In this document: positions 13,027-33,815 of the stretch, piece after piece
How positions within the stretch are numbered: the first letter of the stretch is position 1
How the letters are laid out: each line of letters opens with the position of its first letter
NCBI GenBank assembly: GCA_903904195.1
Contig: CAIVBM010000033.1
Coordinates: 1-48,489 of the forward strand
DNA: 48,489 nucleotides
Direction of reading: 5' to 3'
DNA from: an uncultured bacterium
GTDB lineage: Bacteria; Patescibacteriota; Minisyncoccia; Phycocordibacterales; UBA9973
Translations under genes and position numbers: made by a program
Notes under the pieces: model-generated
The model's input: the letters and a program-made list of their open reading frames with translations, nothing else
Database searches by the model: none
Told to the model about the DNA's origin: nothing

Positions 13027-13054
13027 GATTTATGTCCTTTCAATAGTAAACAAA

Positions 13055-13071
13055 AAGCTCGAATCGAGCTT
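13055..13071 (-). promoter_or_regulatory. Palindromic hairpin plus U-tract in the rpsS leader (possible attenuator)
   Basis: AAGCTCGA-t-TCGAGCTT followed by TTTTGTTT. It lies between the rpsS promoter and the rpsS start. Confidence 0.35.
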
Positions 13072-13077
13072 GGTTTT

Positions 13078-13105
13078 ATATTAGCAAATAAGAGTAAAAT
13101 GTCAA
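13078..13105 (-). promoter_or_regulatory. Promoter TTGACA-16-(TGc)TAATAT restarting rpsS-rplV...
   Basis: Reverse complement of 13100-13105 is TTGACA and of 13078-13083 is TAATAT, preceded by ATTTGC. Confidence 0.55.
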
Positions 13106-13130
13106 ACCCAAACGCTTATAAAAAAGTTTG

Positions 13131-13158
13131 GGGTGGGCCGCGCGTACGCGACCCACCC
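13131..13158 (-). terminator. GC-rich hairpin terminator closing island A
   Basis: GGGTGGG-ccgcgcgtacgcga-CCCACCC, followed on the minus strand by CCAAACTTTTTTAT. Confidence 0.55.
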
Positions 13159-13350
13159 TCACTCTAAAGATACGTCTTCTCCTTGGCTTACTGCTCTTCT
13201 TGATCTCCTTGATTCAGAAGATGCTTGGCACATTCCCGTCGGCCAGCTCTCCTGTTTCTGCGAACACTCCTCCACTTCACTTTCTTCTCGTAGTCCACTG
13301 CTCTCCTTTTGTTTGAGGCATTTTATATGCCCGTAGTTTACTGCGACTCA

Positions 13351-13560
13351 CTACTTCACTGAACGTATCGTAAGACAGCTACCACTCTTGAGCCTGCTGA
13401 TTTTGGGATTGTAGTGACCCAAGAAATAGAGCAACTCTTTTAGAGTAAACGAGCCGTCACTCTGAACTACGAGCTCGTTTGTCCTACGAAATGTAGCTTT
13501 TTTTATATTGCTACATGCCATACCACTATCACCTCCCTTGGTAAAGGGTGAATGTGTCAC
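13351..13560 (-). CDS. Island A small ORF, 69 aa, unknown function
   Basis: ORF track. The GTG start overlaps the stop of the upstream 29-aa ORF (GTGA), suggesting translational coupling. GC-rich composition. Confidence 0.4.
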   Translation of the reverse strand: MTHSPFTKGGDSGMACSNIKKATFRRTNELVVQSDGSFTLKELLYFLGHYNPKISRLKSGSCLTIRSVK

Positions 13561-13646
13561 TTCTTGACGCCTTTTCTTCTCTCGGCGTCAGCAGCTTTTC
13601 GAGCATCTTCTTTCGCCCGAATTTCATGAGCTCTACGTCTTGTCAT
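13557..13646 (-). CDS. Island A small ORF, 29 aa, Arg/Lys-rich (MTRRRAHEIRAKEDARKAADAERRKGVKK)
   Basis: ATG at 13646 is preceded by AAAGGAG with a 6-nt spacer. Too short for the ORF track, so translated by hand. Confidence 0.35.
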   Translation of the reverse strand: MTRRRAHEIRAKEDARKAADAERRKGVKK

Positions 13647-13707
13647 CGAAGAACACTCCTTTCTTTGTTTCTGTGAACTACCTCATGCAGTCCACTTTTC
13701 TCCTATG

Positions 13708-13736
13708 TTTATACCACATAATAAAAAATAACACAA
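13708..13736 (-). promoter_or_regulatory. Putative island A promoter TTGTGT-17-(TGg)TATAAA
   Basis: Reverse complement of 13731-13736 is TTGTGT and of 13708-13713 is TATAAA, with TGg just upstream. Confidence 0.35.
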
Positions 13737-13765
13737 CAACAAGATAAAAGGTGTATAAACAAAAA

Positions 13766-13786
13766 TACGGAGGCAACGCCTCTGTA
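13766..13786 (-). terminator. Terminator-like hairpin directly after rplB
   Basis: Minus strand TACaGAGGC-gtt-GCCTCcGTA followed by TTTTTGTTT. Confidence 0.5.
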
Positions 13787-13797
13787 TTTTTTAATTT

Positions 13798-15632: not shown

Positions 15633-16247
15633 TTATCTACTGACTATTTCAACCAAACTACCACGCTTGCCTGCTATCGCTCCTTTTACAAGCATAATGT
15701 TGTTTTCTTTGTCTACGGAAACGACTTTTAAATTTTTCTGTGTAATACGATCGCTACCCATTCTACCTGCCATTCTCATGCCTTTAGGAACGTGAGTTCG
15801 GAGTCCTCCTCCGATACTTCCTGGCTCTCTTTCAGAATGTTTTTGACCGTGAGTACGTGGACCGCCGTGGAAACCATGGCGCTTTACAACACCTTGGAAA
15901 CCCTTACCTTTGGAAACGCTTGAAACTTGAAGCATATCACCAGGAGCAAAAGAAGAAACATCAATAACATCACCTTCTTTTGCAGTCACCTTATCAATAG
16001 GCTTTAATCTAAATTCTTTGAGAGTTTTGTAGAAAGCACCTTTCATAGCACCAGCGCTTCCCTTACTGATTCTTTCTTTTTTCTGAGTACCAAAACCTAC
16101 TTGGATAGAATTGTAACCATCTTTTTCTTTAGAAAATACTCTAGTCACTGTCACAGGTCCAGCGGAAAGAATAGTCACAGGAACAACTGCTCCGTCTTCT
16201 CCGAAGAATTCTGTCATATTTTGTTTTGTGGCTAAAATGAATTTCAT
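15633..16247 (-). CDS. rplC: 50S ribosomal protein L3
   Basis: SKGKGFQGVVKRHGFHGGPRTHGQKHSEREPGSIG motif. Confidence 0.95.
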   Translation of the reverse strand: MKFILATKQNMTEFFGEDGAVVPVTILSAGPVTVTRVFSKEKDGYNSIQVGFGTQKKERISKGSAGAMKGAFYKTLKEFRLKPIDKVTAKEGDVIDVSSFAPGDMLQVSSVSKGKGFQGVVKRHGFHGGPRTHGQKHSEREPGSIGGGLRTHVPKGMRMAGRMGSDRITQKNLKVVSVDKENNIMLVKGAIAGKRGSLVEIVSR

Positions 16248-16711: not shown

Positions 16712-17902
16712 TTAACCAAGAATCTTTGTAACCACTCCTGCTCCGACAGTCTTGCCTCCTTCACGGATAGCGAATCTCTGTGATTCTTCTAGCGCGACTG
16801 GGGTAACCAACTTAACAGTTATTTTTACGGTGTCTCCTGGCATAACCATTTCTGTACCTTCGGCCAAAGTCACATCACCAGTAACGTCAGTAGTTCGGAT
16901 GTAGAACTGAGGCTTGTAACCCTTGAAGAATGGAGTGTGACGTCCACCTTCTTCCTTTTTCAAAACGTAAATTTCTGCAGTAAAGTTATCGTGTGGAGTA
17001 ACAGTACCTGGTTTTGCTAGGACCTGTCCTCGAGTGATATCTTCTTTCTTTAAACCTCGAAGGAGGATACCAGCATTGTCTCCTGCCTGACCTTCCTTTA
17101 GATTCTTGTTAAACATTTCAATACCTGTAACTGTTGATTTCTGTGTAGGCTTGATTCCGACGATTTCTACGTCTTCATCGAGCTTGATTACACCTCTTTC
17201 TATCTTTCCTGTTACGACAGTACCACGGCCTTCGATTGAGAATATGTCTTCCACTGGCATGAGGAATGGCTTTGCCAAATCTCGGACTGGAATAGGAATA
17301 TAAGTATCAAGAGCGTTTGCAAGCTCAAGAATTTTCTTTGCCCATTCATCATCTACAGACTTTGATTCAAGACCCTTTAAGGCTGAACCACGAATAACCG
17401 GACAGTCTTTATCAAAACCTTGTTTAGCAAGTAATTCACGAATTTCTTCTTCAACTAAATCAATCATTTCTTTATCGTCAACCATGTCGCACTTGTTTAA
17501 GAAGACGATTATCTTTGGAACACCAACTTGTTTTGCAAGAAGAACGTGTTCACGAGTTTGAGGCATAGCACCATCTGTCGCTGCAACCACGAGGATCGCA
17601 CCATCCATTTGAGCTGCACCGGTGATCATGTTTTTGATGTAGTCAGCGTGTCCTGGAGCATCAATGTGCGCATAGTGACGAGCGTCAGTAGCGTATTCAT
17701 TGTGAGAAATGTTAATGGTGATTCCACGAGCTCTTTCTTCAGGAGCATTATCAATCTGGTCAACACCTCGAAGTCGGACCTGCTTTCCGGCCATGTTCAA
17801 AACATGCAAAATCGCTGCTGTTAAAGTTGTCTTACCATGGTCAACGTGACCAATAGTTCCGACGTTTACGTGTGGCTTATCTCTTTTAAATTCCTCTGCC
17901 AT
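16712..17902 (-). CDS. tuf: Elongation factor Tu
   Basis: [18 protein letters not shown] and NKCD G-motifs over a full-length 396 aa. Confidence 0.98.
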
Positions 17903-18052
17903 ATTATTATTTGGGTTAATAATTAAGACTCAACATACAGGAACCAGTTGCTGAGGCTTAGCTACTAACTTGCCTCGCCATTGGCGTGGGCAAAATTATT
18001 AATTAATAATTGATAAATCAAAACAAAAACTGCAAAAAACGCAGTTAAATAG

Positions 18053-18080
18053 ATACTAGCAAATTTAAAAACATTGTCAA
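18053..18080 (-). promoter_or_regulatory. Promoter TTGACA-16-(TGc)TAGTAT for tuf
   Basis: Reverse complement of 18075-18080 is TTGACA and of 18053-18058 is TAGTAT, preceded by ATTTGC. A ~140-nt leader follows. Confidence 0.55.
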
Positions 18081-18122
18081 CGGCTATTTTGTGTAAAAAA
18101 TTAACACCTAAAAATAGCAAAA

Positions 18123-18146
18123 CCCAGAAGGAATTTTCCGTCTGGG
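18123..18146 (-). terminator. Hairpin CCCAGA-N12-TCTGGG plus T-run (second terminator downstream of island B)
   Basis: Minus strand CCCAGAcggaaaattcctTCTGGG followed by TTTTGCTATTTTT. Confidence 0.45.
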
Positions 18147-18190
18147 CGTACATTTTGATTTGAAAACAAAAGAACTAAATTGGGGAACAC

Positions 18191-18216
18191 GGCACGGGGA
18201 GACTTCTCCCCGTGCC
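18191..18216 (-). terminator. GC-rich hairpin terminator closing island B
   Basis: GGCACGGGGAG-actt-CTCCCCGTGCC, an 11-bp perfect stem. Confidence 0.6.
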
Positions 18217-18267
18217 GACACGAATTCATCTCTGCGATACTTCGTGTATCTCCAATGCCTTTCGGCG

Positions 18268-18552
18268 TTACAAGGTGACAGTGATAGGAACCTTGGGCTC
18301 GGCCGCTAGAGCAGCTTGGCCGAGCTTCCAGATAGCGCTCGTGATATCCGCCCACCTTGCAGGATCATCTGGCCTCATCTCTTTCGGACCAGCGTAGGGA
18401 ACAAACTTCCTGTTACCCACGTCTGCAGGCGAATATATAGAACGCCTCTTGTCGAGTTCTTTGCACAGTGTATTGAAATTGGGATTTTCTTTCCCAATAT
18501 ACATAGTGAGAAGAATCAACAAGTACACATACTCTTCATGAAACTTCGTCAT
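18268..18552 (-). CDS. Island B ORF 2, 94 aa, unknown function
   Basis: ORF track. AAAGGAA sits 3 nt upstream of the ATG, 16 nt after the ORF 1 stop. GC-rich. Confidence 0.45.
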   Translation of the reverse strand: MTKFHEEYVYLLILLTMYIGKENPNFNTLCKELDKRRSIYSPADVGNRKFVPYAGPKEMRPDDPARWADITSAIWKLGQAALAAEPKVPITVTL

Positions 18553-18568
18553 GGGTTCCTTTGGTTGA

Positions 18569-18754
18569 CTAGAGGTGCCGCCTCGCGTGAGCTGTGGTGT
18601 TCACCCCTAGGGTCATGAACTCGAAGTCGGCCGGATCAATTTTCCCCCTGGCGATGATCACCGTCATGTTGGGACCGCCCTTCTGGGCCACAATTTTTTT
18701 GATCCCCGCACGTCGCCGTTGAAACTCTTTCTCTTCATCTGGTGTAAATGCCAT
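18569..18754 (-). CDS. Island B ORF 1, 61 aa, unknown function
   Basis: ORF track. AAAAAGGAGTGTT-ATG provides a strong SD. Confidence 0.45.
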   Translation of the reverse strand: MAFTPDEEKEFQRRRAGIKKIVAQKGGPNMTVIIARGKIDPADFEFMTLGVNTTAHARRHL

Positions 18755-18883
18755 AACACTCCTTTTTCCTTATACACTGCACTAATTCTCTTTTGAAGAA
18801 AGCAACAACTTCTCAACGAACACATCCCGTATTCGTCCAGCCTTCCTCAACGAAAATCTGCACTCGTTTTAATTAGTTTACGA

Positions 18884-18923
18884 TGCAGAATTTTGGAAAC
18901 TTTTTAATTTCCAAAATTCTGCA
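18884..18923. repeat. Perfect 16-bp inverted repeat TGCAGAATTTTGGAAA / TTTCCAAAATTCTGCA with an 8-nt spacer
   Basis: Read directly. A third half-site-like copy, AAAATCTGCAC, lies at 18852-18863. Confidence 0.6.
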
Positions 18924-19017
18924 CGCAAACTATTTCAAAAATTTATTTAAAAGAACAAAAAACACTAAAAAATAGCATAACATATTTTTTAGGAAAAGTA
19001 AAGCTCCAAAGCGTCCT

Positions 19018-21165
19018 TTATTTCCTAGCTGAAATGATAGTTTCGGCTACATTGTTTGGCACCATATCGTAGCGGAAGAATTCCATTGTGAATGAAGCTC
19101 GTCCTTCGGTCATTGAGCGGAGTCCTGTCATATATCCAAACATTTCGGAAAGAGGCACGATGGCTTTGATAACTTTGTTCATTCCCCTGTCTTCCATGCC
19201 TTCGATGAGGGCTCGCTTTGAAGAAAGGTTTCCTGTGACGTCTCCCATGAATTTCTCTGGAGTGACAACTTCCACTTTCATCATCGGTTCAAGAATTACA
19301 GGATTTGCTCGGCGACATGCGTCTTGTATAGCCATAGATGCAGCGATTTTGAAAGCCATTTCATTTGAGTCAACTTCGTGGTAACTACCATCCCAAAGTT
19401 CTACAGAAACATTTACCATTTTGAATCCTGCCAAAACTCCACGATCCAAACCTTCTTTGAATCCTTTTTCACAAGGGGCAATATATTCTTGTGGAATAAC
19501 TCCTCCTTTGATTGTGTTTATGAATTCGAAACCAAGCGATCGCTTTGTATTCTTTGGTAAATCTTCCAACTCTTCTTTGGTAAGGACTTCCATTGGCTTG
19601 ACCTTGATCTTTACGTGACCATAGTTTCCGCGTCCTCCAGACTGCTTGATATATTTACCTTCTGCTTCAGAATGACCATGAATAGTCTCACGATATGCTA
19701 CTTGCGGTTTACCAACATTTGCTTCCACAGCAAATTCGCGTTTCATACGATCCACAATAATTTCCAAATGCAATTCTCCCATACCAGAAATGATGGTCTC
19801 ACCTGTTTCTTGATCAGTTGAAACTTTGAAAGTAGGATCTTCTTGAGCAAGTCTGTTTAGAGCCATACCCATTTTTTCTTGGTCTGCTTTTGTCTTTGGT
19901 TCAATTCGTAGAGAAATAACTGGTTCAGGGAAAACTATTCTATCTAAGATGATTGCATTGTCTTCATCACAAAGAGTGTCTGAAGTAATCGTGTCTTTCA
20001 ATCCGACAGCGGCGGCTATTTCTCCGGCAAAAACTTGTTTCACTTCTTCGCGGTCATTTGCGTGCATTCTCAAAATACGGCCGATGCGTTCTTTGTTTCG
20101 AGTTCGTGGATTGTAAACATAACTGCCGGCAGTAAGAGTTCCGGAATAAACACGGAAGAAAATAAGCTGTCCGACGAATGGATCAGTCGCGACTTTGAAA
20201 GCAAGCGCAGAAAAAGGTTCCGTATCCGAAGCATGTCTGACAATAGCGGCGTCGTTGTTTGGATCTATACCAGTGATTGCGGCGATGTCCGTAGGCGCCG
20301 GCAAGTAATCTATCACGGCATCGAGCACCAACTGAACGCCTTTGTTTTTCAATGCGGAACCGGCGAAAACAGGGAAAATTTCATTTGCGATGACAGCCTT
20401 GCGGAGAGTCTTCTTTAAGACGTCCATGCCGGGAATCATGCCTTCCAAATATTCTGTCATCATCGCATCATCCGTCTCAACTATTTTCTCCACCAATTCG
20501 GAATGATATTTTTCTGCGTCTGCTTTTAGATTTTCTGGAATGTCTTTTTCAATAACTTGGTTACCCATGTCGCCTTCAAAATAGTAAGCCTTCATGCGGA
20601 GCAAATCTATAACTCCTTCGTGTTTTTCTTCGAGACCGATAGGTATCTGCATACGAACTGCTTTTTTTGTAAGTCTGTCTAAAATAGTAGCGTAAGAATG
20701 TTCAAAAGATGCACCTGTTCTGTCTAATTTGTTTACGAAACAAACACGAGGAACTTTGGCTTCATCGGCATATCTCCAGTTTGTTTCAGATTGAGGTTCC
20801 ACTCCGGCCACGCCGTCAAATACGACGACTGCGCCGTCGAGCACGCGAAGAGAACGCTTTACCTCTACGGTAAAGTCGATGTGTCCTGGTGTATCAATGA
20901 TGTTAAAACGATGCTTTTTATTTTTATCTGTCGGAGCATATGTAGGCAACCAGAAACAAGTGACAGCAGCAGAAGTAATAGTGATTCCACGTTCCCTTTC
21001 CTGTTCCATCCAGTCAGTAGTGGTTTCTCCCTCATGCACTTCGCCAATTTTGTGCTTCTTTCCGGTATAAAAAAGAACACGCTCTGTTGTGGTCGTCTTT
21101 CCTGCGTCAATGTGCGCGATAATTCCAAAATTTCTAACTTTTTCTAAAGGATAATCTCGTTCCAT
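19018..21165 (-). CDS. fusA: Elongation factor G
   Basis: [20 protein letters not shown] and NKLD G-motifs. 715 aa, between rpsG and tuf. Confidence 0.98.
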
Positions 21166-30445: not shown

Positions 30446-30453
30446 AAATATTT

Positions 30454-30639
30454 TTAGCGATTAATCAACTTCTCTAAACCTCTTGAGAAGATAAAATCAA
30501 AAATACCTAAATAATATGCGACTACGATGGATAAAATTATAACAATAAGAGTGTAGTAAAAAGTCTGATTCTTTGTGGGCCAGATAACGTGTTTTAACTC
30601 TCCTTTTGTTTCTTTTAAATACTCTGTAAATTTTGACAT
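30454..30639 (-). CDS. secE: Preprotein translocase subunit SecE
   Basis: Single-TM 61-aa protein (ELKHVIWPTKNQT...) immediately upstream of nusG. Start set to the ATG at 30639. Confidence 0.7.
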   Translation of the reverse strand: MSKFTEYLKETKGELKHVIWPTKNQTFYYTLIVIILSIVVAYYLGIFDFIFSRGLEKLINR

Positions 30640-30649
30640 ATATTTCTCC

Positions 30650-30683
30650 CGAGGCAAGACCTAACATGTTAGGTCTTGCCTCG
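30650..30683. repeat. Perfect 34-bp palindrome CGAGGCAAGACCTAACA|TGTTAGGTCTTGCCTCG
   Basis: Both halves checked base by base. It lies 10 nt upstream of the secE ATG and abuts GGGAGAAATAT-ATG. Confidence 0.9.
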
Positions 30684-30767
30684 TTTGTTATTAAACCTTT
30701 TAAAAAAGCCCCTCTCAGGGCTCTTTTAATACTACTCTTTTTGCGGTAAAAAAGCAAATTTAGGAAT

Positions 30768-30800
30768 CCTCCCCGCCTTGATAAGGAGGGGTAAGGGGTG
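30768..30800 (-). repeat. GC-rich palindromic element CCCCgCCTTGATAAGGaGGGG + TAAGGGGTGG (family copy 1)
   Basis: It abuts the stop of 30802-31641. It shares the CCTTGATAAGGAG(A/G)GGG core with 35021-35072. Confidence 0.5.
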
Positions 30801-30801
30801 G

Positions 30802-31694: not shown

Positions 31695-32726
31695 TTAAAT
31701 CAAATTGACTTCAGGACTGAGTTTTAAGCCAAATTTATCTTTTACACTAGAAATAATTTCATTTGCTAAACTCAAAACTTCTTCTCCTGTCGCTCCTCCA
31801 TAATTTACTAAAACCAAAGCTTGTTTTTCATGCACACCAACATTGCCTTTCTTATAACCCTTCCAGCTTATACCATTTACAGGACCGCACTCTTCAATGA
31901 GCCACCCAGCAGGAATTTTCACCATTTCATCTTCATCAAAATGAGGCATTTCGGGATAAATTTTCTGTAATTTTTCAAATTCCGAAACTTTTACAAAAAC
32001 ATTTTTAAAAAAACTGCCTGCGTTATGAATAACTTTTGGATCCGGAAGCTTGCTCTTCCTTATCGCCCCTACTGCATCACTCACATCTTTAGAATTTTTA
32101 ATTTCTATCTTATTTTTTTCTAAATAATCTTGTAGAATTTTATAATTAATATTTTTATTTTCTTTTTTGCTTAATTTTAAAGTGACAGCTGTAATAAAAT
32201 ATTTTCCCTTAAATTCATTTTTAAAAACACTATCACGATAACCAAACTTACATTCTTCTTTTTGAAAAATCTTATTTTTACCCATATCAACATCAAAAGC
32301 TTCAACATTTTCTAGAACATCTTTGATTTCTACTCCATAAGCGCCTATGTTTTGCACCGGAGCAGCGCCTACGGTACCTGGAACAAGAGAGAGATTCTCA
32401 ATACCCCAAAGTCCTCGCTCCACAGAAAAATCCACGAGACTATACCACATCTCTCCACCCATGCATCTAATGAAAACATCATTTGAATTATCTTTTAAAA
32501 TTTCTATCCCTTTTAATTTATTTAAAATTACCAAACCATTAAAATCTTTTGTAAATAAAACATTACTTCCTCCACCAAGGAATAGTTTCTCATTATTTTT
32601 GAATTCTTTTATATTAAAAAGCTCTTTTAAATCAGCTTCAGTATTAATTTCAACAAAAAACTTCACCTGAACCGAAATGCCAAAGGTATTTAACTTAGAT
32701 AAATTGTAATTTTTTTGTATTTTCAT
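31695..32726 (-). CDS. murB: UDP-N-acetylenolpyruvoylglucosamine reductase MurB
   Basis: FAD-binding FLGGGSNVLF, GTVGAAPVQNIGAYG and the C-terminal GSFFKN ... AGWLIE motifs. Confidence 0.9.
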   Translation of the reverse strand: MKIQKNYNLSKLNTFGISVQVKFFVEINTEADLKELFNIKEFKNNEKLFLGGGSNVLFTKDFNGLVILNKLKGIEILKDNSNDVFIRCMGGEMWYSLVDFSVERGLWGIENLSLVPGTVGAAPVQNIGAYGVEIKDVLENVEAFDVDMGKNKIFQKEECKFGYRDSVFKNEFKGKYFITAVTLKLSKKENKNINYKILQDYLEKNKIEIKNSKDVSDAVGAIRKSKLPDPKVIHNAGSFFKNVFVKVSEFEKLQKIYPEMPHFDEDEMVKIPAGWLIEECGPVNGISWKGYKKGNVGVHEKQALVLVNYGGATGEEVLSLANEIISSVKDKFGLKLSPEVNLI

Positions 32727-32763
32727 TCGCTTATTTAGTATAGCAAAAGTTTGGCTAGAAATA

Positions 32764-32783
32764 GAGAACCGCCGGTGGTTCTC
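32764..32783 (-). terminator. GC hairpin GAGAACC-N6-GGTTCTC closing island C
   Basis: Read directly. It lies between the last island ORF and the murB -10 box. Confidence 0.45.
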
Positions 32784-32821
32784 CCACCAGGCGGTGTACT
32801 GTCAATGTTGTTAAGGGCTGT

Positions 32822-32971
32822 CTATTCTTCGCCCCCTTTCCTTTTGAAGAACTCTTTCACGCGCCGAATTCCTTCGGCAACTTCCGCCTCCAAGGGATCA
32901 AGGGGACCATTATCCCCGCCATCATATCCCAAGACTAGGCTGAGCTTTCTGGCCTCGTTGGTACTATTCAT
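32822..32971 (-). CDS. Island C ORF 2, 49 aa (MNSTNEARKLSLVLGYDGGDNGPLDPLEAEVAEGIRRVKEFFKRKGGEE)
   Basis: ATG at 32971 preceded by AAAAGGAAACCC. It is the 3' part of the 112-aa ORF in the track. Confidence 0.4.
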   Translation of the reverse strand: MNSTNEARKLSLVLGYDGGDNGPLDPLEAEVAEGIRRVKEFFKRKGGEE

Positions 32972-32993
32972 GGGTTTCCTTTTGCTGAACGGA

Positions 32994-33173
32994 CTACAAA
33001 GAGCGCACAAGATCGGGGTCAGAAGCAGGGGACTTAGATCCACCCTCATTTCCCTCTCTTGAACTCTCTGCGACTGCAGGCGACGGTTGTTGTTGACCAC
33101 CAGAACTCGCTGCTTCTTCGGCGGCAACTTCCATTGCATCTTTCCAGTCGTGATGTTCACGTACCAGATTCAT
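32994..33173 (-). CDS. Island C ORF 1, 59 aa, acidic and low complexity (MNLVREHHDWKDAMEVAAEEAASSGGQQQ...)
   Basis: Hand-translated, one residue below the ORF-track cutoff. ATG at 33173 with AAGGAG 11 nt upstream. Confidence 0.4.
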   Translation of the reverse strand: MNLVREHHDWKDAMEVAAEEAASSGGQQQPSPAVAESSREGNEGGSKSPASDPDLVRSL

Positions 33174-33214
33174 GTTTGTTTTTTCTCCTTGTTTGTGCTC
33201 GGAACTCTGTACGC

Positions 33215-33243
33215 ATTATACCCCCAGTGGTGGCTCCTGTCAA
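33215..33243 (-). promoter_or_regulatory. Perfect consensus promoter TTGACA-17-TATAAT driving island C
   Basis: Reverse complement of 33238-33243 is TTGACA, which overlaps the tsaC stop codon. Reverse complement of 33215-33220 is TATAAT. The spacer is exactly 17 nt. Confidence 0.65.
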
Positions 33244-33815
33244 TCTCTTAAAACTTCAACTGAACCGTCTTTTTTTAGCCTAATTACTTTAGAAGCTTTG
33301 CCTTTTATCTCTCCCCCATCAACATATAAATCAACAGAATCTCCAAAATACTTTTTCGCTTCAATAATATTTAGCGCCGGAGGCAAACCTTCAAGGTTTG
33401 CCGACGGCGCTACGAGCGGACCTGTTTCTTTCAATAAATCCTGTAAACCTCCTTGCGCAGGCAAACGAAAAGCTAGCGAATTTGTATCACGATGTAAATA
33501 TCTAAATTTCTCTTCATTACAATCTAAAATAATACTTACCGGTTCTGTATTTATAGACCAATATTTTTCTAATACTAATTTTTGTTCTTTTGAAATATTT
33601 ATTGAAAATTTTCCTAAATCTTTAATGTCAGAAATTAAAATAATACATGGCTTGCTCGGCGCACGCTTTCGTATTTCATAAATCCTGTTTACTGTTTTCT
33701 CATTTTCAGCTTTTCCAACAATTCCATACAAAGTATCTGTGGGCATGACAACCACACCACCCTCTTTAAGTGTTTTATGTAGATTTTTATCATTCCATAC
33801 ATCATTTTTTTTCAT
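33240..33815 (-). CDS. tsaC: L-threonylcarbamoyladenylate synthase, TsaC/YrdC family
   Basis: VVVMPTDTLYGIVGKA, RKRAPSKPCIILI, LAFRLP and PSAN motifs of the YrdC domain. Confidence 0.85.
   Translation of the reverse strand: MKKNDVWNDKNLHKTLKEGGVVVMPTDTLYGIVGKAENEKTVNRIYEIRKRAPSKPCIILISDIKDLGKFSINISKEQKLVLEKYWSINTEPVSIILDCNEEKFRYLHRDTNSLAFRLPAQGGLQDLLKETGPLVAPSANLEGLPPALNIIEAKKYFGDSVDLYVDGGEIKGKASKVIRLKKDGSVEVLRD

What the first reader, a model, noticed from the sequence alone, without database searches (positions are those of the whole stretch)
18191..18797. GC-rich two-gene cassette (island B) inserted between fusA and tuf
The fusA-tuf junction of the str operon holds about 1.1 kb instead of a short spacer. 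The central ~600 bp is 50-60% GC, counted on two 60-nt lines. It encodes a 61-aa ORF with an AAAAAGGAGTGTT-ATG start. Sixteen nt after its stop comes a 94-aa ORF preceded by AAAGGAA. Both are on the operon strand. They are followed by a perfect 11-bp GC hairpin (18191-18216), a second hairpin with a T-run (18123-18146), and a TTGACA-16-TAGTAT promoter for tuf. Neither protein shows a motif I recognise. The layout is the same as islands A and C: promoter, SD-led tiny ORFs, GC hairpin, then a restart promoter. This suggests one recurring class of insert that targets intergenic sites next to highly expressed translation genes.
Basis: partly seen in the sequence, partly recalled or inferred. Interest (0 to 1): 0.78.

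Follow-up and report, generated by a model that had tools for sequence, protein, structure and literature searches.

The report
Orphan two-gene cassette between fusA and tuf
An AT-rich, ultra-small groundwater bacterium (Patescibacteria, Nomurabacteria-like) carries a real, foreign-looking pair of tiny genes of unknown function between two translation-factor genes; it is a lineage-specific passenger shared with one sister species, not a demonstrably mobile element.

Summary
fusA (19018..21165) and tuf (16712..17902) are 1115 nt apart. The spacer contains the most GC-rich 300-600 nt of the whole window. It encodes two same-strand ORFs with ribosome-binding (SD) sites, of 61 and 94 aa, followed by a perfect GC hairpin, a second terminator and a conserved tuf promoter.

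The region was assembled independently in about 18 contigs from several samples. Neither ORF matches Pfam, NCBIfam, PHROGs, PADLOC, Rfam, phage or plasmid collections.

An exhaustive protein search found one homolog of ORF2 (47% identity). It lies at the same fusA-tuf position in a sister species, Ca. Nomurabacteria. Between the two species:
- the non-coding flanks are 80-88% identical, against about 54% at tuf synonymous sites, and the terminator stem shows three compensatory changes;
- ORF2 evolves as a fast coding gene (dN/dS about 0.3);
- ORF1 keeps its SD site, start codon and open frame but has no sequence similarity.

A nearer outgroup has an empty site, and other relatives hold unrelated genes there.

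Host genes almost never have SD sites (6 of 59), but all seven ORFs of islands A, B and C do.

Verdict: a moron-like, probably horizontally acquired orphan mini-operon sitting in a variable slot. A toxin-antitoxin-like mechanism is my best guess and is unproven. I found no evidence of mobility and no shared sequence among the islands.

The parts
19018..21165 (-). fusA (EF-G), the upstream flanking gene
   Evidence: 715-aa ORF. Pfam EF-G domains are recorded on identical contigs.
18965..18992 (-). AT-rich 10-bp hairpin followed by a T-run. It is a possible weak fusA terminator and overlaps the candidate promoter TTTACT-17-TATGCT (18974-19002).
   Evidence: Inverted repeat I8. It lies in a roughly 45-nt block that is identical in the sister species L088. 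Both functions are inferred only.
18876..18930 (-). Long palindrome with a perfect 16-bp core (18884-18923, TGCAGAATTTTGGAAA/TTTCCAAAATTCTGCA). It could be an operator or a 5'-UTR hairpin.
   Evidence: Inverted repeat I1. The stems are identical in L088 while the loop differs.
18838..18864 (-). Conserved block AGTGCAGATTTTCGTTGAGGAAGGCTG carrying a third GTGCAGA half-site
18769..18798 (-). Conserved block CTTCAAAAGAGAATTAGTGCAGTG, which includes a weak promoter-like TTCAAA-17-TATAAG
   Evidence: The spacing differs by 3 nt in L088, so promoter function is doubtful.
18569..18767 (-). SD (AAAAAGGAG) plus ORF1, 61 aa, basic (pI 10.1)
   Evidence: The SD and the ATGG start are conserved in L088, but the body is unalignable. 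The frame is open only from the conserved ATG in both species (shuffle P = 0.08 and 0.024). GC at codon positions 1/2/3 is 0.56/0.42/0.65.
18268..18567 (-). Conserved junction CAACCAAAGGAACCC (an SD) plus ORF2, 94 aa
   Evidence: Homolog P0003/P0006 is 47% identical, and the indels are in-frame. dN is 0.48 and dS is 1.6. Mismatches by codon position are 0.41/0.30/0.55.
18219..18246 (-). Small conserved hairpin CACGAA...TTCGTG downstream of ORF2
18190..18217 (-). Perfect 13-nt GC inverted repeat followed by a T-rich tract: the main terminator of the cassette
   Evidence: Inverted repeat I4. Three fully compensatory pair changes relative to L088, read from the alignment.
18118..18146 (-). Second terminator-like hairpin CCCAGA..TCTGGG followed by TTTTG
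   Evidence: It is conserved in L088.
18053..18080 (-). tuf promoter TTGACA-16-TAGTAT with a TG-extended -10
   Evidence: The motif is conserved in window-clade relatives L088, L094, L009/L096, L090 and (variant -10) L089, and in the L094 empty site it follows the fusA stop after 14 nt.
17903..18052 (-). tuf 5' leader: a promoter-proximal hairpin (18024-18046), a variable GC hairpin (17970-17993) and a conserved 22-bp hairpin (17915-17969)
   Evidence: RNAalifold on 6 species gives 28 pairs, 6 of them with compensatory changes. There is no Rfam match.
16712..17902 (-). tuf (EF-Tu), the downstream flanking gene

Best explanation
**Shown**
- The island is a genuine, lineage-specific two-gene small-protein unit lodged at the boundary between the fusA transcription unit and the separately promoted tuf gene. 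The organism is a Nomurabacteria-like Patescibacterium.
- It looks foreign to the genome: GC3 is 0.54-0.65 against a host value of about 0.34, and both ORFs have canonical SD sites in a genome whose own genes lack them.
- It has been resident since before two sister species split. I found no sign that it is currently mobile.
- ORF2 is a real, fast-evolving protein-coding gene.
- ORF1 is a maintained, SD-led open frame that encodes a basic peptide with no sequence conservation between the two species.
- The flanking non-coding shell is under purifying selection. The shell comprises a palindrome with repeated GTGCAGA half-sites, the two SD/start junctions and two terminators.

**Inferred mechanism, about 0.3 likely**
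- The pair works as an autoregulated two-component conflict module of the toxin-antitoxin type.
- ORF1 would be a labile, basic neutraliser and repressor that binds the conserved palindromes.
- ORF2 would be the more conserved effector.
- The double terminator would insulate tuf, which restarts from its own promoter.

Architecturally the unit resembles a phage 'moron': a small unit ending in its own terminator, with odd base composition, inserted between conserved genes. Whether it also has its own promoter is unresolved; the candidate promoters are weak.
For: **Real sequence, not a chimera.** About 18 independently assembled contigs carry it at 99.9-100% identity.

**Compositional outlier.** It is the top-ranked 300-, 500- and 600-nt GC window of the 48.5-kb window. 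GC at codon positions 1/2/3 is 0.56/0.42/0.65 for ORF1 and 0.48/0.40/0.54 for ORF2, against host GC3 of 0.27-0.44.

**SD contrast.** Only 6 of 59 host ORFs have an SD-like motif, and fusA, tuf and most of the r-protein genes listed do not. All 7 ORFs of islands A, B and C have one (Fisher P = 2e-6).

**Sister-species copy at the same site.** L088 and related loci carry it; NCBI names the ORF2 homolog a hypothetical protein of Ca. Nomurabacteria.

**Segment identities against the sister species:**
- 5' flank 0.80
- ORF1-ORF2 junction 0.88
- 3' flank 0.83
- ORF1 0.45
- ORF2 0.58
- For comparison, tuf pS is 0.46, that is, about 54% identity at synonymous sites.

**Terminator.** The stem has three compensatory double changes.

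**ORF2 is coding.** dN/dS is about 0.3 and mismatches run position 3 > 1 > 2.

**ORF1 is kept open.** The frame is open in both species only from the conserved start codon.

**Derived insertion.** L094 (EF-Tu 93.7% identical) has fusA stop + 14 nt + the tuf promoter. L089 and L009 hold unrelated AT-rich genes without SD sites.

**Consistent with a toxin-antitoxin type module:**
- gene sizes and order, with a 16-28 nt gap between the ORFs;
- a basic upstream product (pI about 10);
- the upstream partner diverged while the downstream one is conserved;
- conserved palindromic repeats upstream;
- more distant Patescibacteria carry a Phd/YefM-like antitoxin-domain gene in the same slot.
Against: - Neither ORF resembles any toxin, antitoxin or defence family at E <= 10 in Pfam, NCBIfam, PADLOC or PHROGs.
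- hhalign finds no relation between ORF1 and the Phd/YefM-like slot proteins (probability below 1%).
- The AlphaFold models have low confidence (pLDDT 57 and 62), and the fold and PDB sequence searches return nothing significant.
- The palindrome lies about 130 nt upstream of ORF1 rather than over a clear -10/-35. No strong cassette promoter is detected, so read-through transcription from fusA cannot be excluded.
- Only two species are available, so dN/dS (with dS saturated) and covariation rest on a single pairwise comparison.
- Horizontal origin is inferred from composition and SD usage only. No donor was found.
Confidence: 0.4

Rival explanations
1. The cassette is an accessory small-protein operon whose function is not toxin-antitoxin. 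One possibility is a bacteriocin-like peptide (ORF1) with its immunity protein (ORF2). Another is a pair of host-interaction or surface-conflict proteins of an episymbiont. Either kind of locus would be expected to evolve fast.
For: - The order 'small peptide gene, then a roughly 95-aa helical protein' fits class II bacteriocin loci (my own knowledge).
- Both ORF1 versions contain an A-x-x-G-G motif at residues 23-27 (window) and 28-32 (L088) (sequences).
- The low-confidence model of ORF2 is four-helical.
- Divergence is extreme compared with the flanks.
Against: - No bacteriocin, double-glycine-leader or immunity HMM matches at E <= 10.
- The supposed leader does not fit the double-glycine consensus at positions -4, -12 and -15 (inspection).
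- No peptidase-domain ABC exporter was found among the ten large window ORFs scanned against Pfam.
- Neither ORF has a signal peptide, and the hydrophobic stretch of ORF2 is only 13 residues (inspection).
Confidence: 0.2
2. ORF2 is the only functional product. ORF1 is an upstream ORF whose translation, not its peptide, matters: ribosomes translating it open the GC-rich mRNA and deliver themselves to the ORF2 SD site (translational coupling).
For: - In ORF1, the SD site, the start codon, the open frame and the stop position just before the ORF2 SD are conserved, while the amino-acid sequence is not.
- The ORF1-ORF2 junction is 88% identical between species.
Against: - 61-81 codons is long for a coupling leader.
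- The products are basic in both species.
- The coding-like GC pattern across codon positions suggests some constraint on the peptide.
- Stop-to-start spacing differs between species, 16 versus 28 nt.
- The ORF1 region shows no excess RNA structure (z = +0.5 and +0.9).
Confidence: 0.2
3. The GC-rich segment is a structured non-coding RNA or a cis-regulatory element for tuf, and the ORFs are fortuitous.
For: - GC-rich intergenic DNA in an AT-rich genome is a classic ncRNA signature.
- The 691-nt region folds with z = -6.35 (20 shuffles).
- The ORF2 segment alone folds with z = -3.8.
Against: - No Rfam family matches, even at E <= 10.
- The excess structure is not conserved. The homologous L088 segments give z = +0.9 and -0.25, and the window ORF1 segment gives +0.5.
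- Much of the whole-region signal probably comes from the perfect terminal hairpins.
- ORF2 shows codon-position-dependent substitution, in-frame indels and dN < dS.
- Two terminators separate the region from the tuf promoter, which also works without it in L094.
Confidence: 0.05
4. This is the first reader's model: islands A, B and C are copies of one actively mobile class of insert that targets intergenic sites next to highly expressed translation genes.
For: - All three islands share the same layout.
- AAGGAGTGTT occurs only at the first ORFs of islands A and B in the window.
- Islands B and C have similar ORF-ORF junctions, CAAAGGAA(A)CCCATGA.
- Weak AT-rich direct and inverted repeats lie near the ends of the insert (D1 and I3).
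- Island A is replaced in a strain that is otherwise 99.9% identical.
Against: - No protein or DNA homology links the islands.
- No recombinase gene is evident.
- The repeats are short and AT-rich, at the level expected by chance.
- The only homolog is syntenic in the sister species.
- Nothing was found in phage, plasmid or IMG/VR collections.
- Island C lies between a Sua5/YrdC-like gene (my recognition of the sequence; not scanned) and a gene I read as murB (recognised from the sequence, not scanned), not between translation-factor genes.
Confidence: 0.05

Closest known systems
Phage 'morons' (Hendrix/Juhala concept): autonomous promoter-gene-terminator units inserted between conserved genes of lambdoid phages
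   Same: One or two small genes of unknown function sit between two conserved neighbours. The unit ends in a factor-independent terminator. Its base composition differs clearly from the neighbours. Related genomes differ in presence or absence at the same junction.
   Different: Here the host locus is the chromosomal str/S10 ribosomal gene cluster of a Patescibacterium, not a phage. There is no phage context and no phage-database match. The cassette promoter is not firmly identified.
Type II toxin-antitoxin operons (for example Phd/Doc, YefM/YoeB, RelBE)
   Same: Two small co-directional genes lie close together. The upstream product is small and basic and evolves faster than the downstream one. 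Palindromic repeats lie upstream. Composition is atypical and distribution among relatives is patchy. Other Patescibacteria have a Phd/YefM-like gene in the same slot.
   Different: No homology to any toxin or antitoxin family. There is no relation to the Phd/YefM-like slot proteins. The 16-28 nt gap differs from the overlap or few-nt gap typical of these operons (my own knowledge). Toxicity is untested.
Integron gene cassettes (a small orphan ORF followed by an attC hairpin)
   Same: Small orphan ORFs with atypical GC, each unit ending in an inverted repeat. Several units occur in one genome.
   Different: The terminal hairpin is a short, perfect 13-nt inverted repeat followed by a T-tract, which is a terminator. 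It lacks the bulged R''-L''/L'-R' organisation and the GTTRRRY core of attC (inspection). The units are dispersed rather than arrayed. No integrase gene is evident.
Taxonomically restricted (orphan) genes at operon boundaries in bacterial genomes
   Same: Short, fast-evolving and confined to two sister species. They sit where a transcription unit ends and the next begins. The ribosomal gene cluster is known to tolerate insertions between operons (PMC6735719, PMC8046335; abstracts seen).
   Different: Here the boundary lies inside what are normally the contiguous str and S10 operons (fusA|tuf and rplB|rpsS). The ORFs use SD-dependent initiation signals that the host's own genes lack.

Membership tests
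Type II toxin-antitoxin module | Two adjacent, co-directional small genes forming one operon | tested here: met
   ORF1 (61 aa) and ORF2 (94 aa) lie on the same strand 16 nt apart. The arrangement is conserved in L088 with a 28-nt gap.
Type II toxin-antitoxin module | Sequence or profile homology of at least one partner to a known toxin or antitoxin family | tested here: not met
   No families at E <= 10 in Pfam, NCBIfam, PADLOC or PHROGs. The L088 versions also give none. hhalign against the Phd/YefM-like slot proteins gives probability below 1%.
Type II toxin-antitoxin module | Antitoxin with a DNA-binding fold that autoregulates through a palindromic operator at the promoter | tested here: inconclusive
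   A conserved 16-bp perfect palindrome plus further GTGCAGA half-sites lie upstream. The promoter position is unclear. The ORF1 model has low confidence and shows only one helix.
Type II toxin-antitoxin module | The toxin inhibits growth and is neutralised by its cognate antitoxin | not testable with these tools
   This requires expressing ORF2 with and without ORF1.
Known non-coding RNA family (Rfam 15) | Covariance-model match at or near the gathering score | tested here: not met
   No match at gathering threshold. At E <= 10 there are only spurious miRNA-like hits on the AT palindrome, far below their thresholds.
Mobile element (IS, MITE or integrative element) | Additional copies at other loci or on phages or plasmids | tested here: not met
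   The only homolog is syntenic. There are no significant hits in the phage, plasmid or IMG/VR collections.
Mobile element (IS, MITE or integrative element) | Recombinase or transposase gene, and terminal repeats with a target-site duplication | tested here: not met
   The roughly 915-nt insert has no room for a recombinase gene. Only weak AT-rich repeats lie near its ends (28 nt at 79% direct; 17 nt at 76% inverted).
Integron cassette | attC site with a GTTRRRY core and a bulged imperfect stem, plus an integrase or cassette array | tested here: not met
   The hairpin 18190-18217 is a perfect 13-nt inverted repeat and is followed by GTGTTCCCC, with no purine-rich R box. The islands are dispersed. 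The integrase was not searched for by HMM across all window ORFs.
Class II (double-glycine leader) bacteriocin with immunity protein | Double-glycine leader consensus, a dedicated peptidase-ABC exporter and an immunity gene downstream | tested here: inconclusive
   GG dipeptides are present in both ORF1 versions, but no HMM matches and the leader consensus fits poorly. No exporter was found among the ten large window ORFs scanned against Pfam. The rest of the genome was not seen.
Moron-like autonomous insertion (architectural class) | Own terminator (and promoter), atypical base composition, and insertion between conserved genes with an empty site in relatives | tested here: met
   The terminators show compensatory changes. 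The island is the top GC outlier of the window. L094 has an empty site. The promoter is only weakly predicted.

The most novel reading that the evidence does not exclude
Islands A, B and C may represent an undescribed class of micro-operons in SD-independent Patescibacteria. Each would have a GC-rich, hypervariable small-protein payload that relies on canonical SD sites, unlike most of the host's own genes, which lack them. Each would be enclosed in a conserved regulatory shell of palindromes, SD junctions and a compensating terminator. They would colonise transcription-unit boundaries inside the ribosomal gene cluster. On this reading they form a translationally distinct tier of conflict or host-interaction genes, rather than three unrelated orphan insertions.
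Probability: 0.12. Interest if true: 0.7.

Novelty: new member of a known kind. Interest (0 to 1): 0.4.

Why it matters
If the reading is right, even the most conserved gene cluster of a minimal-genome symbiont has slots where foreign or newborn small genes settle and persist (fusA|tuf and rplB|rpsS).

These passengers keep SD-dependent initiation signals in a genome whose core genes have dispensed with them. That gives a concrete handle on two questions:
- How do ribosomes of SD-poor Patescibacteria treat SD-led mRNAs?
- How are orphan small proteins gained, insulated and maintained in reduced genomes?

The ORF2 family (two known members) and the conserved palindromic shell are directly testable as a new two-component module.

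The finding is nonetheless incremental. Function is unknown, the taxonomic range is two species, and nothing indicates a new mobility mechanism.

Tried and rejected
**Searches that found nothing**
- Profile searches of ORF1 and ORF2, the L088 versions and the ORFs of islands A and C against Pfam gave no families. ORF1 and ORF2 were also scanned against NCBIfam, PHROGs and PADLOC, again with no hits.
- The word-indexed protein search returned only the query itself for each ORF. A profile of ORF2 plus its homolog added nothing.
- DNA and protein searches against phages and plasmids gave only chance-level hits or none.
- An IMG/VR search with the ORF2 profile found nothing. An 18-mer from the 5' flank hit one 67%-GC viral contig, and BLAST showed this to be chance.

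**False leads**
- In the exhaustive phmmer search, the hits P0004 and P0005 are repetitive junk proteins with 8 low-complexity stretches. I rejected them.
- I thought I saw a resemblance between ORF1 and the Phd/YefM-like slot proteins of other Patescibacteria. hhalign rejected it.
- ORF1a against ORF1b gives no BLASTP alignment at E <= 100.
- I considered that ORF1 and ORF2 might be a split single gene. The N-terminal extension of P0003 simply translates the conserved SD region from an upstream TTG, so I rejected the idea.

**Uninformative results**
- The AlphaFold2 models had low confidence, and the Foldseek/PDB and PDB sequence searches told me nothing.

**The structured-RNA hypothesis**
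- The whole-region z-score of -6.35 did not hold up when the region was partitioned and compared across species. One of my own z-score scripts timed out.

**Other checks**
- Short contigs with non-matching ends (L100, L101, L103) look like assembly chimeras at hairpins or T-runs, not alternative alleles.
- The 62-aa ORF 17965..18153, called by some gene finders, overlaps the conserved tuf promoter and leader. I consider it spurious.
- Literature searches found no description of such cassettes.
Full report
**1. What is there**

All genes here are on the minus strand. fusA (19018..21165) and tuf (16712..17902) are separated by 1115 nt. The window averages 37% GC. The stretch from about 18170 to 18800 is the most GC-rich 300-, 500- and 600-nt segment of the whole 48.5 kb (0.537, 0.524, 0.508), with 150-nt peaks of 0.58-0.59.

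Reading 5' to 3' on the minus strand, the spacer contains:
- an AT-rich hairpin with a T-run (18965-18992), overlapping a weak promoter-like TTTACT-17-TATGCT;
- a long palindrome (core 18884-18923, a perfect 16 bp) and two further GTGCAG(A) motifs;
- AAAAAGGAGTGTT-ATG and ORF1 (61 aa, 18754..18569);
- 16 nt containing AAAGGAA;
- ORF2 (94 aa, 18552..18268);
- a small hairpin (18219-18246);
- a perfect 13-nt GC inverted repeat followed by a T-rich tract (18190-18217);
- a second hairpin plus TTTTG (18118-18146);
- the tuf promoter TTGACA-16-TAGTAT (18080..18053);
- a structured tuf leader.

The stem is 13 bp, not 11. The island's mean GC is 47-55%, not 50-60%.

**2. Not an artefact**

The identical fusA-island-tuf arrangement appears in about 18 contigs assembled independently from several ENA, JGI and Logan samples. 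All are 99.9-100% identical to the window.

**3. Organism and the slot**

EF-Tu places the window among Paceibacteria-type Patescibacteria. NCBI names the closest related ORF2 protein a hypothetical protein of Candidatus Nomurabacteria.

In Patescibacteria the fusA-tuf spacer is often long, 400-2700 nt. A metagenome scan with the conserved tuf promoter motif, together with the genome scan, gave a graded series of relatives:

| Relative | EF-Tu aa identity | Content of the fusA-tuf slot |
|---|---|---|
| Sister species (L088, L091, L092, L097; L095 lacks the upstream region) | 99% (dS 0.71) | the cassette |
| L094 | 93.7% | empty: fusA stop + 14 nt + tuf promoter |
| L089 | 91.9% | unrelated 320-aa AT-rich ORF |
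| L009/L096 | 89-91% | unrelated ORF of about 74 aa |

In 11 more distant genomes the slot holds a conserved protein of 80-155 aa with sub-threshold hits to the Phd/YefM antitoxin domain.

The slot between the end of fusA and the tuf promoter is therefore a variable site. The window's cassette is one lineage-specific occupant.

**4. Coding or not**

Neither ORF matches any family in Pfam, NCBIfam, PHROGs or PADLOC at E <= 10. Rfam gives nothing.

The word-indexed search of 5.8 billion proteins found only the queries themselves. An exhaustive phmmer search of 1.84 billion representatives found one true relative of ORF2, P0003. It is encoded at the same position in the sister species.

*ORF2.*
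- It is 47% identical at the protein level, and the indels are in-frame.
- Nei-Gojobori gives dN = 0.48 and dS = 1.6.
- Mismatch rates by codon position are 0.41, 0.30 and 0.55.
- This is a coding signature on the annotated strand and frame. The rate is 10-40 times the dN of the neighbouring housekeeping genes (0.01-0.05).

*ORF1.*
- The sister species has an 81-aa ORF that starts at the same conserved SD and ATGG. It ends just before the conserved ORF2 SD.
- It shows no detectable similarity to the window's 61-aa product.
- In both species only the frame that starts at the conserved ATG is free of internal stops (shuffle P = 0.08 and 0.024).
- Both products are basic (pI about 10).
- Both bodies stay GC-rich, with GC3 of 0.65 and 0.60.
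- I conclude that ORF1 is probably translated but very weakly constrained in sequence, or that it has been replaced.

**5. The conserved shell**

Against the sister species, identities are as follows:

| Segment | Identity |
|---|---|
| 5' flank | 0.80 |
| ORF1-ORF2 junction | 0.88 |
| 3' flank | 0.83 |
| tuf promoter and leader | 0.79 |
| ORF1 | 0.45 |
| ORF2 | 0.58 |

Synonymous sites of tuf are only about 54% identical (pS = 0.46). The non-coding shell is therefore under purifying selection.

The 13-bp terminator stem differs at four pairs. Three of these are fully compensatory (C-G to U-A, A-U to G-C, G-C to A-U) and one changes to G-U.

The stems of the 16-bp palindrome are identical in the two species, while its loop differs.

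**6. RNA alternative**

The whole 691-nt region folds with z = -6.35. Partitioned, the ORF1 segment gives z = +0.5 and the ORF2 segment gives -3.8. The homologous segments of the sister species give +0.9 and -0.25.

The coding bodies thus show no conserved excess structure. The signal probably comes mainly from the terminal hairpins. Combined with section 4, a structured ncRNA is unlikely.

**7. Foreignness**

Host GC3 is 0.27-0.44, whereas the island ORFs have 0.54-0.65.

Only 6 of 59 long host ORFs have GGAG, GAGG or AGGA upstream. fusA, tuf, S10, L3, L4, S7 and S12 are not among them. All seven ORFs of islands A, B and C have canonical SD sites, and these are conserved in the sister species (Fisher P = 2e-6).

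The unrelated slot genes of L009 and L089 are AT-rich and have no SD site.

This supports acquisition from an SD-using, higher-GC source followed by partial amelioration. That is an inference, since no donor was found.

**8. The 'recurring class' claim**

Island A lies between rplB and rpsS (13027-13797). Island C lies at 32727-33239, between a Sua5/YrdC-like gene (my recognition of the sequence; not scanned) and a gene I read as murB. Both have the same layout as island B.

Island A repeats the cross-species pattern. The terminator, promoter and GC hairpin are conserved, with compensatory changes, while the ORFs are diverged or deleted.

The rplB-rpsS junction is normally tight, -14 to +60 nt in most genomes sampled. 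It is split by 650-900 nt only in this clade.

Against a single class:
- the islands share no protein similarity;
- they share only SD-type motifs at the DNA level;
- nothing similar occurs in phage, plasmid or IMG/VR collections;
- no recombinase or convincing terminal repeats are present.

The shared architecture is real. A shared origin or a mobility mechanism is not shown.

**9. Mechanism**

*Shown.* The island is an insulated small-gene unit with one bona fide fast-evolving protein (ORF2). It has one maintained but unconserved basic ORF (ORF1). Conserved palindromic repeats lie upstream and a double terminator lies downstream, after which tuf restarts from its own clade-wide promoter.

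*Inferred.* My most likely mechanism, at about 0.3, is an autoregulated toxin-antitoxin-like pair. ORF1 would be the labile repressor and neutraliser and ORF2 the effector. This is suggested by:
- gene sizes and order;
- the asymmetric conservation of the two ORFs;
- the basic upstream product;
- the palindromes;
- the patchy distribution among relatives;
- the presence of antitoxin-domain genes in the same slot elsewhere.

It fails the homology criterion for membership in any known toxin-antitoxin family. Structure prediction was uninformative.

The rivals are:
- a bacteriocin/immunity-like or host-interaction pair;
- ORF1 as a coupling upstream ORF for ORF2;
- an ncRNA (unlikely);
- an active mobile class (unsupported).

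**10. Verdict**

The cassette is real and well delimited. It is a moron-like orphan mini-operon in a variable slot of the ribosomal gene cluster, shared by two sister Nomurabacteria-like species.

It is a new two-member protein family inside a known kind of feature: a lineage-specific, probably horizontally acquired accessory cassette. It is not a new mobility system.

The SD-versus-no-SD contrast and the 'conserved shell, hypervariable payload' pattern across three islands are the most interesting aspects. I rate interest as moderate (0.4).

Noticed in passing
window 17903-18052 (- strand); A5 alignment of window, L088, L094, L009, L090, L089: The tuf 5' leader is a conserved structured element. 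A promoter-proximal hairpin plus U-run (18024-18046) is followed by a 22-bp hairpin (17915-17969) ending about 12 nt before the tuf ATG. RNAalifold gives 28 pairs, 6 with compensatory changes, across 6 species. There is no Rfam match. It may be an undescribed cis-regulatory leader of tuf in this clade.
   Followed up: partly
window 13027-13797 (island A, between rplB and rpsS); L088 6753-7472; L001 14843-15520: The normally tight rplB-rpsS junction is split by a 770-nt GC-rich unit. It has its own terminator, an extended -10 promoter, three SD-led ORFs (29, 56 and 36 aa), a GC hairpin and an rpsS restart promoter. The shell is conserved in the sister species with compensatory hairpin changes, but the ORFs are not. 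In a strain otherwise 99.9% identical (L001/L099), the sequence diverges from window 13913, inside the rplB 3' end. It continues into unrelated AT-rich DNA with an ORF of at least 158 aa.
   Followed up: partly
window 32727-33239 (island C): A third GC-rich unit lies between a Sua5/YrdC-like gene (33240..33815; identified by eye, not scanned) and a gene I read as murB (31695..32726; not scanned). It has TTGACA-17-TATAAT, SD-led ORFs of 59 and 49 aa joined by AAAAGGAAACCCATGA (similar to the island B junction), a GC hairpin and a downstream promoter-like site. No Pfam hits. No comparison with a sister species was possible.
   Followed up: partly
whole window, upstream regions of 59 long ORFs: Host genes essentially lack Shine-Dalgarno motifs. 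Only 6 of 59 have one, and fusA, tuf and most of the r-protein genes listed do not; their upstream regions are AT-rich. The 16S anti-SD sequence could not be checked because no rRNA gene lies in the window.
   Followed up: partly
loci L030, L031, L032, L037, L039, L043, L045, L046, L051, L061, L065 (the fusA-tuf spacer of each): Eleven more distant Patescibacteria carry a conserved 80-155 aa protein directly upstream of tuf. It has an N-terminal Phd/YefM antitoxin-like domain (Pfam PF02604, E = 2.6e-5 to 1e-3, below the gathering score) and an acidic C-terminal region with LL..IN.DIA and YYFEP motifs. The longest ORFs I listed in these spacers include no obvious toxin partner; I did not check this systematically.
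   Followed up: partly
L089 (rc 6474), L093 242-269, L098 (rc 3349): The consensus promoter TTGACAAT..TTTTAAATTTGCTAGTAT, followed by a short hairpin and U-run, is reused upstream of rpsS in related genomes. This suggests a clade-wide strong promoter plus 5' hairpin module for translation genes.
   Followed up: no
window 15825-15945 (within rplC) compared with L102: All 27 mismatches and 2 gaps between the window and strain contig L102 cluster in about 120 nt of rplC, with none elsewhere in 2.3 kb. This looks like a short recombination tract.
   Followed up: no
L090 1215-1689: A relative with a different gene order upstream of tuf carries an adjacent 71-aa plus 85-aa gene pair. I read it as an antitoxin plus a RelE/ParE-like toxin, from sequence recognition only.
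   Followed up: no
window 30454..30639 (-): Another SD-led 61-aa ORF (GGAGA-5-ATG) lies in the 356-nt gap 30446-30801. Unlike islands A, B and C, this gap is not GC-rich.
   Followed up: no
L100/L101 1-56; L103 1-460: Short contigs carrying the identical tuf gene have non-matching ends that begin at window 18879 (next to the long palindrome) and at 18029 (in the leader hairpin/T-run). These are probably assembly chimeras at repeats or hairpins rather than alternative alleles.
   Followed up: partly
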